From the IMG/VR virus record IMGVR_UViG_2547132281_000011: a stretch of DNA of 29,115 bases. The stretch is one strand, 5' to 3'. The number at the start of each line of letters is the position of its first letter. Position 1 is the stretch's first letter. The stretch comes from a virus. Its lineage: Duplodnaviria > Heunggongvirae > Uroviricota > Caudoviricetes. The notes under the pieces were generated by a model. That model was not told where the DNA came from. It saw only the letters and a program-made list of their open reading frames with translations, and did no database searches. The position numbers and the translations under genes were made by a program. Below, piece after piece: positions 17,732-21,628 of this stretch.

Positions 17732-18055
17732 ATGACTGAACCGAAACAGTCTGGTATTAAAAAAGGGTTCCTCTTTGGGAGCAGAATCGGAGAGCAGAAT
17801 AAAACTTACACGCTAAGCTTGGATGCATGTTGTCCAACCGAAGCGATTATAGAGCTGAAAAACGTTCTGGTTGCACTTGAAGAGAGAAGAAGTCATTTCG
17901 CCAGCGGAGAAAACAATGTCATGCTAATTGGCGATGTGGCGGCGACATCACGATATAAAACCGCACCTAATCCTGCGATTCAGTTATCCTTCGACCAACG
18001 AATACTGGAAGCGGAATCAGCAGTTCCCAGAACGGTTCGTCCTCACCAGTCTTAA
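17732..18055 (+). CDS. Hypothetical protein
   Basis: 107 aa from ATG 17732 behind GGGGAGG; 3' end overlaps the convergent ORF 17967-18542 by 89 nt, so one of the two may be spurious. Confidence 0.35.
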   Translation: MTEPKQSGIKKGFLFGSRIGEQNKTYTLSLDACCPTEAIIELKNVLVALEERRSHFASGENNVMLIGDVAATSRYKTAPNPAIQLSFDQRILEAESAVPRTVRPHQS

Positions 18056-18542
18056 CTGGGGCTGCTTCACCCGACCAGTAAAGCCAAGCACGGTGATACA
18101 GTTCCAGCACCGGGCAATCACTGTTCAATAACCTCATATCTCCGCGATGCACCTGCTCATTTGTGATGACTTCATATATCGGTGCCGTTCTTATTTCGTC
18201 TTCGCCTCTCTCATCAGCCAGTAATTCCCTGAACTTCCTGACTTCACTCAGATGCTGACAGGCAAACAGTGACTGATAGCGGGAAGGTTTATCAGGAAAA
18301 TGGCTACGGCGAACTAACTCAAACACCAGACCGACCAGCAGACTTCTGCTGATTCCACTGTCATCTTCCATTTTAGGGCCGGGGTTATAGAGATAGTTAT
18401 ACCCGTGACTCGAAAGGCCATTGGGATACATCTGATGAAGAAAAGCGGCCAGTTCTGGCATTTCAGGCTCGTATTTTCCGGTAATTACATGACAAGGCGA
18501 AGGCAGACGACTAGCGGAATCAAGTGTGTAATACGTTCCCAT
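17967..18542 (-). CDS. Hypothetical protein, 191 aa
   Basis: Long ORF with AAGGA upstream; no motif I can recognise. Confidence 0.45.
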   Translation of the reverse strand: MGTYYTLDSASRLPSPCHVITGKYEPEMPELAAFLHQMYPNGLSSHGYNYLYNPGPKMEDDSGISRSLLVGLVFELVRRSHFPDKPSRYQSLFACQHLSEVRKFRELLADERGEDEIRTAPIYEVITNEQVHRGDMRLLNSDCPVLELYHRAWLYWSGEAAPVKTGEDEPFWELLIPLPVFVGRRITESQD

Positions 18543-18657
18543 TCAGAAAACAATCCTTATCGAACAAACACTGCACGTAGGTAATACATCCAGTAAATCG
18601 CGTTAATAGAAATCATGTATCTCAAAACTTCACTCTGAACTCTGACAGTGAAAGAAC

Positions 18658-18689
18658 GACCAGCCCGGTACCCGAACTCCGGGCTGGTC
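18658..18689 (-). terminator. Strong hairpin, putative terminator of the repressor-linked operon
   Basis: Perfect 11-bp stem GACCAGCCCGG / CCGGGCTGGTC with 10-nt loop; on the minus strand followed by GTTCTTTCACTG. Confidence 0.4.
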
Positions 18690-18951
18690 ATCGCCCCACA
18701 GGAATGCACTGTGAGCCGACCGAGGTTCAGTCAGTCTCGCGAGACCAGACTAGCCTGCCATATTTTTTATAATTATAAAAGGGTTACAGATTATGAAAAT
18801 GCAGACATTCCCCATCGCTCCATGGATTGGTTGTAAACGCCGCCATGCCAGACATATTCTGGCCGATGTTTCCTAGCACGCACGAATATGAGGCAACTGA
18901 CGAGAATAAATGATGCGTCAGAATGAACCGTCGACACCGTGCTTTCAGGTT

Positions 18952-19563
18952 TCAAAAATCTGGAGAAGGTATATCTATCTGACCGACGTTTCGTAACCAC
19001 ATCTCTTGCTTTGTTTCTTTATTGGTTCGGGCGATATCATTAGCATTGTATCTGCATGTTTTAACCGCAACCTCACGAACTCGTGCTATAGGAGTATTTG
19101 TGTAGAATTTAAGATCTTCCTCTACCGCTCGTATGGCGATAAGCCCTCCACTCTGAAAACCGCTGGTTACTTTTAAAAGATCAACTCCTTGGTTATAAAC
19201 GGCATTACATACGTTAGGGAACTCATCTTCTACAGTTTTGGGGATCATCAGCATATCAGGAAGACCCTGTAACACGTTATCTTCCTTTGGCCTCCATGCC
19301 CTTCCCAAAAAAGCTGTTATAGGTTGTGGTGTAGAAAGAAATGCCAATTCTATATAAAACAAACCACTGTAGTGATCGCGTAACGAATAGACTAGTAAAT
19401 GATCTTTTCCAGTTTTACTTGCATTGCTAAGTTTTATATCAAATGGTTTTTTCTGGTACTTAAGCAATCCATCAACTCCCGCATAATAATGCTTTGAAAC
19501 AGCAACAGAAAGTTGATGTACTTGGTTCGGATAATCTGTTCTATATCGTTTAATTAGCCCCAT
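18952..19563 (-). CDS. Hypothetical 203-aa protein, second gene of repressor-linked accessory operon
   Basis: ATG 19563 with GAGG 6-7 nt upstream, 20 nt after the upstream gene; AT-rich; no recognisable motif. Confidence 0.6.
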   Translation of the reverse strand: MGLIKRYRTDYPNQVHQLSVAVSKHYYAGVDGLLKYQKKPFDIKLSNASKTGKDHLLVYSLRDHYSGLFYIELAFLSTPQPITAFLGRAWRPKEDNVLQGLPDMLMIPKTVEDEFPNVCNAVYNQGVDLLKVTSGFQSGGLIAIRAVEEDLKFYTNTPIARVREVAVKTCRYNANDIARTNKETKQEMWLRNVGQIDIPSPDF

Positions 19564-19583
19564 AATAGCCTCGCAGTTATTTT

Positions 19584-20570
19584 CTATTTCAAAATATAAC
19601 GATATTTACTATCTGGAGTGTTTTGTTGGTCAAGTAATAGAGCTCTACATGGGGCGGTCAAAACACGGGCATAACGACCATCGGGGTTTATGTTGATGTA
19701 ACAAGTTTTCCCTTTAACACCATAAGATTCAGGTATTATTGCCTGTGTAGACACCGTGAATTTAAGGGTATGCCAGCCCGATTTTTGCTTGTAGCTTGAA
19801 ACCGAATGGAAATCATCTGAGTACTTATTTAACCCTGGAAACATGCTGCGTAATGCTGGGATGGAATCTTCTATTATTTTGTCGTTGGTTTTAATGTTAA
19901 AAACGCTGGTTTCAGTAGATGCTACTGCTTTAGCATTTCCCCATTTACCAGCGAACACAATCATTCCCACGAAAAATATTGCGACAAGAACTAACGCTCC
20001 CCCCAACACTACTACATGAGGCTTCCGGCTTCTGGTTGGTACAGTCGCGACTGATTTTGCCCCGCTGTCCGATGGAGGTGATAGAGTTTTACTCTCATCA
20101 CGAATATTCAGCAGATCATCAAAATAACCAAACACAGCCTGCAACTGCTCTTTGTCCAGGCCTTTAAGATGGGTTGTACCGAAATGCTTCAGACAGTATC
20201 TGTCACGGTCAAGACGATACCTAGGGTCAGTAAGCACCATTATTTTGCTGACCAGAAGATTACAGTCCTTCATATTCTGGATCTGTTGTGCATATCTCTG
20301 GAGGATCTCAACCGCACCATGATAATCAGCCGCAGTCATTTCATTAACTGTTTTGGTATTAAGTTTCGTGTGGATCGTCATCCATAGTTCGCGCTTACTT
20401 TCCCCCAGATCAACCAATTCATCCATCAATCTGTGTAAATCGCGTTTTTGCAGCAACGAAATTGGTTGCTGGGCAGAGGGAAGTATGTCAGCAGAATAGT
20501 TATGAATGGTAACATCACCGCTGACAACGTTACCCACATCTCCGTTAACTGTTTGCTTCTCTTTACTCAT
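19584..20570 (-). CDS. Single-pass membrane protein (cytoplasmic ~190-aa N-domain, one TM, ~115-aa C-domain), translationally coupled to repressor gene
   Basis: TM segment VVVLGGALVLVAIFFVGMIVFAG; start ATG overlaps repressor stop (ATGA at 20567-20570); N-terminus NGDVGNVVSGDVTIH echoes the repressor C-terminus. Confidence 0.65.
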   Translation of the reverse strand: MSKEKQTVNGDVGNVVSGDVTIHNYSADILPSAQQPISLLQKRDLHRLMDELVDLGESKRELWMTIHTKLNTKTVNEMTAADYHGAVEILQRYAQQIQNMKDCNLLVSKIMVLTDPRYRLDRDRYCLKHFGTTHLKGLDKEQLQAVFGYFDDLLNIRDESKTLSPPSDSGAKSVATVPTRSRKPHVVVLGGALVLVAIFFVGMIVFAGKWGNAKAVASTETSVFNIKTNDKIIEDSIPALRSMFPGLNKYSDDFHSVSSYKQKSGWHTLKFTVSTQAIIPESYGVKGKTCYININPDGRYARVLTAPCRALLLDQQNTPDSKYRYILK

Positions 20571-21028
20571 TTTCTCTTTGTATTTTTGTTCATTATTCCA
20601 CCTGTTCCTATGGTTACGTTACCTTTGATAACATTCCCCAGAACATCTCCATGAATAACCTGTTCCGCCCGTTCTCTGGAGGAGCCAGTCGTCAATGCCG
20701 ACAAAACTGAACCTTTGACTTGTAACGGTGCTTGCCGGTAGTGCTGAAGTAACTCCATTTCATCACGTGATAAAGTTATACCTGATGATTCCCCAGTAAG
20801 AATGAACTGTACGTTGGCCCCAATTCTTGCAAAGGCTGCAAGTAACTCACCTCCGGGAACTGCAACCCCTCGTTCATATTTCCCCCACATTTCTCTTGAA
20901 ACGCCACAAAGGGCTGCTACTTCAGCCTGCTTGAGTGATAACCGCGAACGCTCAGCTTTGAACCGCGACGCGCAAAGAGAATCAAAATTCACATAAACCT
21001 CATTGACAATGAGAACAATAGTTCTCAT
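20567..21028 (-). CDS. Prophage repressor, XRE/Cro-CI-type HTH (functional analogue of Mu c)
   Basis: HTH motif LSLKQAEVAALCGVSREMWGKYERG; divergent from the early operon; start codon lies within the early-promoter operator region, leader apparently very short. Confidence 0.75.
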   Translation of the reverse strand: MRTIVLIVNEVYVNFDSLCASRFKAERSRLSLKQAEVAALCGVSREMWGKYERGVAVPGGELLAAFARIGANVQFILTGESSGITLSRDEMELLQHYRQAPLQVKGSVLSALTTGSSRERAEQVIHGDVLGNVIKGNVTIGTGGIMNKNTKRK

Positions 21029-21031
21029 AAT
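21004..21031 (+). promoter_or_regulatory. Early promoter (Pe-like), sigma70-type
   Basis: TTGACA (21004-21009), 16-nt spacer, CATAAT (21026-21031), about 45 nt upstream of the ner-like ATG. Confidence 0.55.
21010..21027. promoter_or_regulatory. Operator: perfect 18-bp palindrome TGAGAACAATAGTTCTCA
   Basis: Exact 7-4-7 dyad filling the spacer of the early promoter and abutting the repressor start codon. Confidence 0.55.
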
Positions 21032-21078
21032 CTATCACATATAAAACAAACATCATTGCATCAACAAAGGAGACAACA

Positions 21079-21267
21079 ATGACTTCCGAACAAGTTAAAA
21101 CTCTCTTCCGTCAGCGTGGTATCACGTTTACCCGCTGGGCCGAAGAACACGGCTACAGCCGCAATGAGGTCTATCGTGTTCTCAATGGACAGACCAAAGC
21201 TCGTTACGGCAAAGCCCATGAAATTGCCGTAAAGCTGGGATTAAAACCCACGTCAAATGCGGCATAA
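21079..21267 (+). CDS. Small Ner/Cro-like DNA-binding protein, first gene of early operon
   Basis: 62 aa, AAGGAG RBS, HTH-like FTRWAEEHGYSRNEVYRVLNG; position as Mu ner. Confidence 0.55.
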   Translation: MTSEQVKTLFRQRGITFTRWAEEHGYSRNEVYRVLNGQTKARYGKAHEIAVKLGLKPTSNAA

Positions 21268-21319
21268 ATTTTCCATATATGCAACAGGTTATCACATATT
21301 GCAAAAATGGAAATGTGAC

Positions 21320-21628
21320 ATGAGTAAAGTAAATATCTCCAGTTCCGGGACCCGCATCCTACGTGTACTCAAAGCTCTACGCGGTCACTCTCTGAACGGT
21401 GTTTCTAACGGTGAACTGGCATCAGCCCTAGATGAGTCCCCGGCGAACATCAATCGAGCACTCAATACCCTTATCGAAGAGGGACTAGCCCTGAAACTGG
21501 AAAACGGGCGTTTCGCACCAGGCATCCAGTTGCTGCAGATCGCCATGGCCCACAGTAACGAGATGGCACGTGCACAGGATCGCATTAACGAAATCAACCA
21601 ACGTGTTATTTCAGGTAGTCGTTTGTAA
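21320..21628 (+). CDS. Winged-helix-like DNA-binding protein
   Basis: 102 aa from ATG 21320; TRILRVLKALRGHSLNGVSNGELASALDESPANINRALNTLIEEGL resembles wHTH regulators; start uncertain. Confidence 0.45.
   Translation: MSKVNISSSGTRILRVLKALRGHSLNGVSNGELASALDESPANINRALNTLIEEGLALKLENGRFAPGIQLLQIAMAHSNEMARAQDRINEINQRVISGSRL

What the first reader, a model, noticed from the sequence alone, without database searches (positions are those of the whole stretch)
18952..21028. Repressor-coupled, AT-rich two-gene operon (membrane protein + 203-aa protein): candidate undescribed lysogeny-expressed exclusion/defence module
The repressor gene ends in an ATGA overlap with a 328-aa ORF (cytoplasmic N-domain, one TM helix, C-terminal domain), which is followed after 20 nt and a GAGG RBS by a 203-aa ORF, then a strong hairpin. 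Both downstream genes are markedly AT-richer (about 30-42% GC) than the phage backbone (about 55-65%), which suggests a horizontally acquired moron. Genes co-transcribed with the lysogeny repressor are, by established precedent (lambda rexAB, P22 sieA, P2 old/tin), usually superinfection-exclusion or abortive-infection functions. I recognise neither protein and the architecture does not match any two-gene defence system I know, so it may be new.
Basis: partly seen in the sequence, partly recalled or inferred. Interest (0 to 1): 0.8.

Follow-up and report, generated by a model that had tools for sequence, protein, structure and literature searches.

The report
Repressor operon: matched-tail partner, dead transposase
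The lysogeny operon of this Mu-like E. coli prophage holds a repressor and a membrane protein whose tail and head carry the same co-evolving short motif, so they probably touch, followed by a swappable gene for a catalytically dead copy of a phage transposase core; neither feature appears to have been described.

Summary
The three co-directional genes, the ATGA overlap, the 20-nt gap with GAGG and the low GC are real. The "strong hairpin" is not better than chance. The window is a BcepMu-like transposable prophage of E. coli.

The two downstream genes are not one system.

(1) Repressor plus 328-aa protein is a fixed pair, at the position of BcepMu gp17/gp18. Related pairs occur in BcepMu-like, B3-like and P2-like phages. 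The 328-aa protein has a disordered head, a Flk-N-like helical domain, one TM helix and a periplasmic domain. The repressor's C-tail and the partner's N-head share a ~17-aa G/N/Q/V-rich motif. It differs between eight lineages but matches within each pair (2 of 40,320 permutations score as well). I infer direct contact: a tethered modulator of the lysogeny switch.

The parts
20567..21028 (-). HTH (XRE/cI-type) lysogeny repressor, positional orthologue of BcepMu gp17; the true start is probably GTG 20992 (141 aa)
   Evidence: ORF. Pfam HTH_31 and HTH_3. tblastn 39% identity to BcepMu gp17. The KS10 paper calls gp17 the lysogenic repressor. Start-site conservation.
20609..20671 (-). Repressor C-tail motif RAEQVIHGDVLGNVIKGNVTI (residues 120-140 of the annotated ORF)
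   Evidence: BLASTP against residues 3-22 of the 328-aa protein, E 4e-4. Beats composition shuffles in 0 of 1000. Identical residues often use different synonymous codons.
20505..20564 (-). N-head motif of the 328-aa protein, KEKQTVNGDVGNVVSGDVTI (residues 3-22), in a segment AF2 predicts as disordered
   Evidence: pLDDT about 43 for residues 1-28. Nearly invariant across the family.
20088..20483 (-). Cytoplasmic all-helical Flk-N-like domain (residues about 30-161)
   Evidence: AF2 pLDDT above 87. NCBIfam Flk model, E 1.6e-11 over residues 19-147. hhalign to E. coli Flk residues 22-144, 87%. hhalign to the P2-like 216-aa protein, 98%. Precomputed PF27202 Flk_N. phrog_10002 and phrog_5825.
19947..20015 (-). 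Single transmembrane helix (residues 186-208)
   Evidence: Kyte-Doolittle maximum 2.9. Short relatives end just after this helix, i.e. are tail-anchored like Flk.
19587..19907 (-). Periplasmic alpha/beta domain (residues about 222-328) with two conserved Cys (C290, C308)
   Evidence: AF2 pLDDT above 90. Homologous to a separate 177-aa lipoprotein in prophages whose partner gene is short, E 6e-15. Conserved Cys.
19569..19572 (-). GAGG ribosome-binding site of the 203-aa gene
   Evidence: Sequence.
18952..19563 (-). 203-aa soluble protein: stand-alone Mu/BcepMu-type transposase catalytic-core (RNase H-like) fold that has lost the DDE triad; swappable cargo
18793..18897 (+). Remnant of a dam methylase gene (27 codons, then a stop): scar of the cargo replacement
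   Evidence: 81-85% identity to the start of dam in phages PhiKM and KP12.
20993..21078 (.). Divergent control region: palindrome GAGAAC-TATT-GTTCTC (21011-21026) overlapping a plus-strand TTGACA-17-CATAAT promoter for the ner-like early operon
   Evidence: highly conserved in E. coli, Salmonella and Serratia loci.

Best explanation
This is the lysogeny (immunity) operon of a BcepMu-like transposable prophage, and it holds two separable things.

(1) The repressor and the 328-aa protein form an old, translationally coupled pair. The partner is an N-in, single-pass membrane protein: disordered head, Flk-N-like helical cytoplasmic domain, TM helix, periplasmic domain. The repressor's C-terminal tail and the partner's N-terminal head carry the same ~17-residue G/N/Q/V-rich motif, and this motif co-varies between phage lineages. 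I infer that the two proteins contact each other through these motifs, either by a homotypic beta-type contact or through a shared docking site. On this reading the partner tethers, titrates or senses for the repressor. It is a built-in modulator of the lysis-lysogeny switch, not a stand-alone defence effector.

(2) The 203-aa gene is interchangeable cargo placed behind the pair. It encodes the catalytic-core fold of a BcepMu-type transposase with all three DDE residues replaced. A conserved basic, glycine-rich pocket appears to occupy the old active site, judged from sequence position only. It most likely acts without catalysis, by binding Mu-type transposase or transposition DNA intermediates. 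That would interfere with transposition of incoming transposable phages, or damp the resident transposase.

Shown here: architecture, homologies, fold, loss of the triad, covariation and the distribution. Inferred: physical contact, the direction of regulation, co-transcription, and any phage-exclusion phenotype.
For: Pair.
- The repressor and partner keep a 4-nt overlap or a short gap in E. coli, Salmonella, Serratia, BcepMu, phiE255, Ps59, AP3 and KS10. RSA1 and RsoM1USA keep the pair with larger separations: an IS between the genes, and a 158-nt gap.
- Tail-head similarity holds in each of 8 lineages against composition shuffles (p <= 0.022; five at <= 0.001).
- The cognate sum is 345 against a permutation mean of 221 +/- 30; only 2 of 40,320 permutations reach it. 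Tails scored against internal partner segments give 152.
- At least three motif alleles exist: GDVGNVxxGDVTI, NNR(V/I)AGRD(F/Y)xE and ASGxGIxQV.
- Many identical residues use different synonymous codons, so the match is kept at protein level.
- The head is disordered in the AF2 model.
- KS10's partner has the head and the helical domain but no TM helix. The constant feature is therefore motif plus domain, which points at the repressor rather than at the membrane.

Cargo.
- Fold and homology.
- D/D/E map to S19 (I/S/T/A/V/M in the family, never acidic), P108 (P in 39 of 42) and Q137-G140.
- The family is large and conserved: 550 clusters at E <= 1e-3 and 15 invariant residues.
- The nearest active relatives (P0203, P0221) keep DDE. 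P0203 sits in a BcepMu-like early-operon context.
- Neighbours are defence and toxin genes.
- The third slot is variable, and a dam scar remains.
- In the B3-like phage Fc02, RNA-seq of a lysogen places the gene downstream of the repressor on the repressor transcript (PMC9936078).
Against: - No experiment or complex prediction supports contact.
- Covariation among co-inherited genes could also arise if both tails bind a third, co-evolving surface or a common protease or adaptor.
- Komp_PAO1_1 has a motif-bearing repressor followed by an unrelated secreted protein.
- The Flk homology offers a repressor-independent role in flagellar type III secretion.
- The 203-aa protein is only 23% identical to the resident transposase, and the family is about 40% identical across phyla. 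That fits poorly with a decoy that must co-assemble with one specific transposase.
- The 203-aa protein lacks the DNA-binding and C-terminal domains that recruit MuA to its ends.
- One genome carrying the 203-aa gene holds three BcepMu-like regions.
- Defence association is guilt by association from about 15 loci. No promoter or terminator was demonstrated.
Confidence: 0.45

Rival explanations
1. One reading: the 328-aa membrane protein and the 203-aa protein work together as one new two-gene exclusion or abortive-infection system driven from the repressor promoter (Rex-like logic).
For: Same strand, 20-nt spacing, own RBS and no intervening terminator. The same trio recurs in Serratia prophages. 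No known defence model matches.
Against: 100 of the 127 E. coli genomes with the pair lack the 203-aa gene. Other genes fill the third slot. Distant 203-aa homologues follow RhuM, HipA, ParE, type IIG R-M or unknown genes, never a 328-like gene. A dam scar marks recent insertion of the 203-aa gene.
Confidence: 0.07
2. The 328-aa protein is a lysogenic-conversion or exclusion factor that acts on the host envelope. One version is a prophage Flk mimic that locks the flagellar type III export switch through FlhA, or otherwise blocks entry of superinfecting phages. The shared motif would then serve only common regulation, such as degradation by the same protease.
For: Domain homology to Flk: NCBIfam E 1.6e-11 for the 328-aa protein and 8.9e-16 for the P2-like 216-aa relative; hhalign 87%. 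Short relatives are tail-anchored like Flk. Flk is a membrane-anchored inhibitor of the flagellar secretion switch (PMC13344023). The protein has a periplasmic domain, or a separate periplasmic partner.
Against: The scores lie far below the Flk family cut-off (44 against 353 bits). Flk lacks the head motif. Pair-specific covariation with the repressor tail is not explained by a host target. The KS10 partner has no membrane anchor.
Confidence: 0.2
3. The 203-aa protein is an enzyme or ligand-binding effector with a remodelled active site. The RNase H fold would be reused for a new activity or as a sensor, as dead PIWI is in short Argonautes. It would work as a single-gene defence or abortive-infection factor unrelated to transposition.
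For: Family-specific invariant or near-invariant residues are S23, K24, H25, R62, P108, K109 and T133-S-G-F-Q-G-G. I place them around the former active site by sequence position alone; model coordinates were not inspectable. Conservation is high across phyla. Some members are fused to TPR/ST7 repeats. Neighbours are defence islands.
Against: No acidic cluster replaces DDE. D63 and E148 are also present in active transposases, so metal-dependent nuclease chemistry is unlikely. No match to any defence model. No effector partner is conserved.
Confidence: 0.25
4. The 203-aa ORF is merely a decaying fragment of a transposase gene with no function.
For: It covers only the core domain and has lost the catalytic residues.
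Against: Intact ORFs of about 200 aa occur in 550 clusters from Proteobacteria, Bacteroidota, Chlamydiota, WOR-3 and Aminicenantes, with 15 invariant residues. The AF2 model is very confident. All 27 E. coli copies are at least 99% identical and intact. It has its own RBS.
Confidence: 0.03

Closest known systems
BcepMu gp17/gp18 (also phiE255 gp46/gp47 and KS10 gp13/gp12)
   Same: Same position, between the ner-like gene and the lysis genes. HTH repressor with a 4-nt overlap or short gap to a protein that has a motif head and a helical domain. 39% identity for the repressor. The tail-head match is present in these pairs too.
   Different: gp18 and gp12 are annotated only as membrane or hypothetical proteins. 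I found no functional work on them in the library searched. The head motifs, C-terminal parts and the presence of a TM helix differ.
Bab/Agp BASS11 amyloid-signalling pair of E. coli, and fungal HET-S/NWD2
   Same: Adjacent genes in which the C-terminus of the upstream product and the N-terminus of the downstream product share a ~20-residue G/N-rich motif in disordered tails (bioRxiv 10.1101/2024.11.07.622273).
   Different: There the partners are a TPR-GreA/B-C-PIN sensor (Agp; an NLR in the fungal system) and a pore-forming death effector. Here they are a transcriptional repressor and a Flk-N-like protein. Amyloid formation is untested, and no sequence relationship to BASS11 was tested.
Flk (RflH, 'Fluke') of Salmonella and E. 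coli
   Same: Homologous helical N-domain, with a cytoplasmic orientation held by a C-proximal membrane anchor.
   Different: Flk has two domain copies, no head motif and no periplasmic domain. It acts on the flagellar export switch and is a chromosomal housekeeping gene.
Truncated or inactive transposase derivatives that inhibit transposition (Tn5 Inh, P-element KP repressor) — from my own knowledge
   Same: A transposase-derived protein that cannot catalyse transposition and is encoded by, or beside, a transposing element.
   Different: Those derive from the element's own gene and keep the catalytic core. The 203-aa protein is a distant paralogue (23% identity), is core-only, has lost DDE, and belongs to a widely dispersed family found mostly outside transposable phages.
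Lambda rexAB, and olg1/e4 of the B3-like phage Fc02 (genes on the repressor transcript)
   Same: Genes placed with the repressor and, in Fc02, shown by RNA-seq to be transcribed in the lysogen. Olg1 excludes phages (PMC9936078).
   Different: No sequence relationship. Homology between e4 and the proteins here was not tested. Rex proteins do not share motifs with cI.
Short prokaryotic Argonautes (catalytically dead PIWI) — from my own knowledge
   Same: An RNase H-fold domain that has lost its catalytic residues, retained in defence contexts.

Membership tests
rve / DDE (retroviral integrase-type) transposases, Mu/BcepMu branch | RNase H-like catalytic-core fold | tested here: met
rve / DDE (retroviral integrase-type) transposases, Mu/BcepMu branch | Sequence homology to bona fide members | tested here: met
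   BLASTP to the window transposase: E 4e-11, residues 11-191 against 152-345. hhalign 96% to the window transposase and 99.3% to P0203. No Pfam rve hit for any of 42 members.
rve / DDE (retroviral integrase-type) transposases, Mu/BcepMu branch | Catalytic D, D, E triad | tested here: not met
   The aligned positions are S19 (I/S/T/A/V/M in the family), P108 (P in 39 of 42) and Q137-G140. P0203 and P0221 keep HQLD/HQYD, IIDND/ILDHD and GSVEG/GTVEG.
rve / DDE (retroviral integrase-type) transposases, Mu/BcepMu branch | N-terminal end-binding domains and a C-terminal (Mu-transpos_C, domain III) region | tested here: not met
   The 203 aa cover only the core. Full-length relatives are 563-589 aa.
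Flk (NF007987 / PF27202 Flk_N) | Flk-type N-terminal helical domain | tested here: met
   NCBIfam E 1.6e-11 over residues 19-147. hhalign 87%, E 3.7e-6. Precomputed PF27202 hit, marked weak.
Flk (NF007987 / PF27202 Flk_N) | Full-length equivalog: score above the curated cut-off, two domain copies, tail anchor as the C-terminus | tested here: not met
   44 bits against a cut-off of 353. One domain copy, and the TM helix is followed by a 120-aa periplasmic domain.
Known anti-phage defence systems (PADLOC-DB 2.0) | Match to any system protein model | tested here: not met
   No hits for the 328-aa, 203-aa or DUF2441 proteins at E <= 1. No hits for relatives and the other proteins tested at E <= 0.01, apart from a weak P-loop match (SngB, E 0.0073) for the 158-aa ORF and a weak 2TM match for BcepMu gp19.
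Amyloid-signalling motif pairs (BASS/FASS) | Adjacent genes; the same short motif at the C-terminus of one product and the N-terminus of the other, in disordered regions | tested here: met
   head pLDDT about 43.
Amyloid-signalling motif pairs (BASS/FASS) | Association with an NLR/STAND or comparable sensor and a membrane-targeting death effector | tested here: not met
   The partners are an HTH repressor and a Flk-N-like protein.
Amyloid-signalling motif pairs (BASS/FASS) | Motif forms a transmissible amyloid fold | not testable with these tools
   Needs peptide fibrillation, ThT and GFP-foci assays, as in bioRxiv 10.1101/2024.11.07.622273.
Lambda Rex-type repressor-linked exclusion | Co-transcription with the repressor in the lysogen | not testable with these tools
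   Only gene order, the overlap and the lack of a terminator support it. The analogous transcript in Fc02 was shown by RNA-seq.
Lambda Rex-type repressor-linked exclusion | Homology to RexA/RexB or another known exclusion protein | tested here: not met
   No Pfam, PHROG-function or PADLOC match.

The most novel reading that the evidence does not exclude
The matched tail and head are a self-templating, amyloid-like or beta-solenoid signalling motif. On this reading a Flk-N-like protein, usually membrane-anchored and often linked to a periplasmic domain, converts the phage repressor into an inactive, sequestered state, or holds it in an active one. That would be a prion-like or co-aggregation switch governing lysogeny in BcepMu-like, B3-like and P2-like phages, including a prophage present in about 9% of complete E. 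coli genomes. Separately, the 203-aa family would be a widespread anti-transposable-phage immune protein made from a dead transposase core.
Probability: 0.15. Interest if true: 0.92.

Novelty: new variant of a known kind. Interest (0 to 1): 0.72.

Why it matters
Many Mu-like and P2-like phages have repressors without a RecA-cleavable domain, and how they sense when to leave lysogeny is poorly understood. A partner protein is hard-wired to the repressor by a co-evolving motif. It is usually anchored in the membrane and linked to a periplasmic domain, which gives a concrete and testable route for envelope or periplasmic signals to reach the switch. The same cassette is common: it occurs in 127 complete E. 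coli genomes in the BcepMu-like form and in 504 in the P2-like form, including O157:H7.

If the motif works by templated beta-assembly, it would extend amyloid-type signalling from cell-death systems to gene regulation.

The 203-aa family adds a case of a replication enzyme of a mobile element being stripped of catalysis and kept under selection in defence islands of many phyla. It is a candidate specific countermeasure against transposable phages, and a new unannotated protein family (no Pfam, PHROG, NCBIfam or PADLOC model).

Tried and rejected
- Pfam, PHROGs, PADLOC and NCBIfam scans of the 203-aa protein and of all 42 aligned relatives gave nothing.
- Profile searches of PDB sequences gave only noise for both proteins.
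- Foldseek against BFVD gave nothing at E <= 0.001. The afdb50 library was unavailable.
- tblastn of the 328-aa N-domain against phage genomes found only phage 520873. That hit nevertheless led to the P2-like cassette.
- An Rfam scan of 18400-21400 found no RNA family.
- The hairpin or terminator idea was rejected.
- A DNA-level repeat as the cause of the tail-head similarity was rejected on synonymous-codon differences.
- No further copy of the full motif exists elsewhere in the window.
- The pseudogene reading of the 203-aa ORF was rejected on family conservation.
- Literature searches found nothing on BcepMu gp18, on membrane-anchored antirepressors of this type, or on dead-transposase defence proteins.
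- The alternative genes tested from the variable region gave no convincing PADLOC hit (weak P-loop matches only), so 'this slot always holds defence genes' is not shown.
Full report
**What the window is.** The stretch matches at 99.8-100% a chromosomal prophage present in 27 complete E. coli genomes, among them ATCC 43896, B7A and TW14425. RefSeq and phage records place it among BcepMu-like transposable phages (Bcepmuvirus). Lysis genes (holin, SLT transglycosylase, spanin) lie on one arm. The other arm runs divergently: BcepMu_gp16/ner-like gene, IclR-type HTH, DUF3102, a 589-aa rve transposase, an ExeA/MuB-like ATPase and Gam. The finding lies between the two arms.

**Check of the observation.**
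- The three minus-strand ORFs are present as described, as are the ATGA overlap at 20567-20570 and the 20-nt spacer with GAGG 5 nt before the ATG.
- The 328-aa protein has a single hydrophobic helix at residues 186-208.
- GC is 38.9% for the 203-aa gene, 42.6% for the 328-aa gene and 44.8% for the repressor, against about 57% for the structural arm.
- The "strong hairpin" fails. Its minimum free energy is -23 kcal/mol against -22.2 +/- 2.9 for shuffles, and there is no T-run. No terminator-like site occurs before 18678-18662.
- That spacer is a scar. Positions 18793-~18897 on the plus strand are the first 27 codons of a dam methylase gene, 81-85% identical to dam of phages PhiKM and KP12. The remnant is then broken by a stop, and homology ends about 55 nt from the stop of the 203-aa gene.
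- The annotated repressor ATG (21028) is followed directly by a stop codon in the Salmonella and Serratia loci. The conserved start is GTG 20992, with GAGG upstream.

**The 203-aa protein.**
- It has no Pfam, PHROG, PADLOC or NCBIfam match, alone or across 42 aligned relatives.
- Homologues of 36-82% identity exist. An exhaustive HMMER search finds 550 clusters at E <= 1e-3, of which 98 are at E <= 1e-30. Most are stand-alone proteins of about 200 aa.
- The alignment has 15 invariant residues: Y7, N13, H16, S23, Q37, K39, L45, R62, D63, H64, S66, P102, G135, K185 and W189.
- AlphaFold2 gives a very confident model (pLDDT 91.7, pTM 0.88).
- The relationship is visible in sequence too. BLASTP against the prophage's own transposase gives E 4e-11, aligning residues 11-191 to 152-345. 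hhalign gives 96%.
- Two full-length relatives of 563-568 aa (P0203, P0221) align at 99.3%. They keep HQLD/HQYD, IIDND/ILDHD and GSVEG/GTVEG. P0203 lies in a BcepMu-like early-operon context: small HTH, a 279-aa protein, then the transposase.

**Loss of the catalytic triad.**
- In these alignments the DDE positions fall on S19, P108 and Q137-G140. In the family, position 19 is I/S/T/A/V/M and never acidic, and position 108 is P in 39 of 42 sequences.
- D63 and E148 are also present in the active enzymes, so they are inherited rather than new.
- Family-specific conserved residues are S23, K24, H25, R62, P108, K109 and T133-S-G-F-Q-G-G. I place them around the former active site by sequence position only, because the model coordinates could not be inspected.
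- The protein is therefore a catalytically dead, core-only derivative of a Mu/BcepMu-type transposase that is kept under selection.

**Distribution of the 203-aa gene.**
- Only 27 of 5,426 complete E. coli genomes carry it, all at >= 99% identity. The repressor plus 328-aa pair is in 127 genomes.
- The 98 genomes with the 94.8% variant of the pair were not among the 27 hits for the 203-aa gene; the locus I inspected carries an unrelated 193-aa gene in that slot.
- Salmonella, Serratia and other loci carry a 94-aa gene, a 175- or 177-aa lipoprotein, or dam on the other strand.
- Serratia prophages do repeat the trio of repressor, partner and 203-aa homologue.
- Elsewhere the family appears in Oleiagrimonas, Alcanivorax, Methylophaga, Flagellatimonas, Chryseobacterium, Parachlamydia, WOR-3, Aminicenantes and others.
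- There it typically lies just downstream of unrelated genes. Examples are ParE, HTH-HipA, RhuM (PADLOC candidate PDC-S05, with a 4-nt overlap) and a type IIG R-M enzyme. Nearby genes include SoFic, a ZorD/DpdE-like SNF2 helicase, HNH and RelE.
- Some members are fused to C-terminal TPR/ST7 repeats.
- This is the signature of accessory cargo in defence islands and mobile elements. It is not the signature of a fixed partner of the 328-aa protein.

**The 328-aa protein.**
- It is full-length phrog_10002, of unknown function, with relatives in Salmonella, Yersinia, Serratia and Morganella.
- The AF2 model has a disordered head (residues 1-28, pLDDT about 43) and a helical domain at 31-161 (pLDDT above 87). 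A disordered linker and the TM helix follow, then an alpha/beta domain at 222-328 (pLDDT above 90).
- Sequence profiles are clearer. The helical domain is homologous to the N-domain of host Flk: NCBIfam E 1.6e-11, hhalign 87%, and a precomputed PF27202 Flk_N hit.
- The score is far below the Flk cut-off (44 against 353 bits), so the 328-aa protein is not an Flk orthologue.
- The C-domain has two conserved cysteines. It is homologous (E 6e-15) to a separate lipoprotein encoded right after short, tail-anchored versions of the partner. The topology is therefore N-in, C-out.

**The unexpected part: a matched tail and head.**
- The repressor ends ...RAEQVIHGDVLGNVIKGNVTIGTGG..., and the partner begins MSKEKQTVNGDVGNVVSGDVTIHNY (BLASTP E 4e-4).
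- The same relation holds in other pairs, each with a different motif:
  - Serratia: HGKVGNVVQGDMT / KGDVGNVAGRDVI.
  - BcepMu gp17/gp18 and phiE255: FHGSVGQAVKVEGN / FNKPVGQAIQAGEAN.
  - Pseudomonas Ps59: ITVTGNGNRTAGQVYHE / IEVTGSNNKVAGRDFIE.
  - Ralstonia RSA1 and RsoM1USA.
  - Burkholderia AP3.
  - KS10: MVASGSGITQVG / MSASGFGIIQVAG.
  - A P2-like E. coli prophage: NISGGNNRIAGRDYNE / NSNGSNNRVAGRDFHE.
- In that P2-like prophage the module is repressor, 216-aa tail-anchored Flk-N-like protein, periplasmic DUF2511 protein, then integrase. It occurs in 504 of 5,426 E. coli genomes, including O157:H7.
- Each cognate tail-head score beats composition-shuffled tails (p <= 0.022; five at <= 0.001).
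- Over eight lineages the cognate sum is 345, against 221 +/- 30 for all permutations of partners. Only 2 of 40,320 permutations reach it. Tails scored against internal partner segments give 152.
- At identical residues the codons often differ at synonymous sites, so the match is maintained at protein level and is not a DNA repeat.
- No other gene in the window carries the full motif.
- KS10's partner has the head and the helical domain but no TM helix. The invariant core is therefore head plus Flk-N-like domain next to the repressor.
- One exception was seen: Komp_PAO1_1 has a motif-bearing repressor but an unrelated downstream gene.

**Mechanism.**
- Shown: the architecture, the homologies and the covariation.
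- Inferred: the repressor tail and the partner head contact each other, or both bind a co-evolving site. The partner would then modulate repressor availability: tethering at the membrane, titration, or signal-dependent inactivation. The periplasmic domain or protein is a possible input.
- The closest logic in the literature is the Bab/Agp BASS11 pair of E. coli. There, adjacent genes share a terminal amyloid motif that transmits activation (bioRxiv 10.1101/2024.11.07.622273). The G/N/Q-plus-alternating-hydrophobic make-up of the present motifs is compatible with such a fold, but this is untested.
- For the 203-aa protein I favour non-catalytic interference with Mu-type transposition, as a decoy or poison, or as a damper of the resident transposase. 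Arguments for: its ancestry, its placement in a transposable prophage's lysogeny operon, and its defence-island neighbours.
- Arguments against: 23% identity to the resident transposase, about 40% identity across phyla, missing recruitment domains, and a genome carrying it alongside three BcepMu-like regions. A remodelled ligand- or DNA-binding function unrelated to transposition is a serious rival.
- Co-transcription with the repressor is inferred from gene order. In the B3-like phage Fc02, the gene downstream of the repressor (e4) is on the lysogen transcript (PMC9936078). Homology of e4 to the proteins here was not checked.

**Verdict.**
- This is not a single two-gene defence module. It is a conserved repressor-partner cassette with a previously unremarked co-evolving tail-head motif, plus a swappable gene for a dead transposase core from an unannotated, widely dispersed family.
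- I found nothing on either feature in the paper library searched.
- All functional statements remain inference.

Noticed in passing
window 20992-21078: The annotated repressor start (ATG 21028) is not conserved: in the Salmonella and Serratia loci it reads ATG-TGA. The conserved start is GTG 20992, with GAGG 6 nt upstream. This leaves an 86-bp control region with the palindrome GAGAAC-TATT-GTTCTC (21011-21026), a candidate operator, overlapping a near-consensus plus-strand promoter (TTGACA-17-CATAAT, 21003-31).
   Followed up: partly
window 18793-18897 (+): Remnant of a dam methylase gene: 27 codons and then a stop, 81-85% identical to the start of dam in phages PhiKM and KP12. Related prophages have intact dam here. 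It marks the boundary of the event that brought in the 203-aa gene.
   Followed up: yes
window 17967-18542 (-): A 191-aa DUF2441 protein (phrog_5663, no PADLOC hit) lies between the dam scar and the holin. It is another variable cargo gene; in the common E. coli variant a 158-aa P-loop ORF on the other strand replaces it.
   Followed up: partly
L043 1547-4001 (E. coli 2010C_3902; same module in O157:H7 TW14359): A P2-like prophage next to yecA carries repressor, a 216-aa tail-anchored Flk-N-like protein, a periplasmic DUF2511/YebY-family protein and an integrase. It is present in 504 of 5,426 complete E. coli genomes. Its repressor tail and partner head share NNR(I/V)AGRD(Y/F)xE.
   Followed up: partly
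L038 2784-3396 (phage 520873, NC_049344): In this deposited phage genome the Flk-N-like gene after repressor gp04 is split by a frameshift into 55-aa and 115-aa ORFs, and it is not annotated.
   Followed up: no
L046 2580-3800 (RSA1) and L052 196-1430 (RsoM1USA): In RSA1 a transposase gene (an apparent IS) lies between the repressor and its partner; in RsoM1USA an IS2 element lies just upstream of the repressor, which is annotated only as a misc_feature. The tail-head match persists in both.
   Followed up: no
L050 1360-2505 (Pseudomonas phage Komp_PAO1_1): The repressor homologue ends with the motif (SFHGPVGQAAQGDIKNG), but the next gene encodes a signal-peptide protein without it. This is an exception to the pairing, or the partner lies elsewhere.
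   Followed up: no
L054 151-1810 (KS10 gp13, gp12, gp11): The KS10 partner (gp12) has the matched head and the helical domain but no TM helix. The following gene, gp11, encodes a lipoprotein. This suggests that the membrane and periplasmic parts are modular add-ons.
   Followed up: partly
L044 5951-6946 (E. coli K-12 flk): Host Flk gives a weak, sub-threshold Pfam hit to phage Mu GemA (E 7e-4). This hints that Flk-N-like domains and the GemA regulators of Mu-like phages may be related.
   Followed up: no
P0089, P0129, P0141, P0155, P0157, P0158 (relatives of the 203-aa protein): Longer family members (485-1184 aa) carry the dead transposase core at the N-terminus, fused to TPR/ST7-like repeats; one also has GLUG repeats.
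   Followed up: partly
L045 3884-4420 (BcepMu gp19): The gene after gp18 in BcepMu gives a weak PADLOC hit to a '2TM effector' model (E 6.7e-5).
   Followed up: no
NZ_OZ547152.1 (hit H16): A genome carrying the exact 203-aa-gene prophage has three BcepMu-like regions matching parts of the query. The gene therefore does not absolutely prevent co-residence of related prophages.
   Followed up: no
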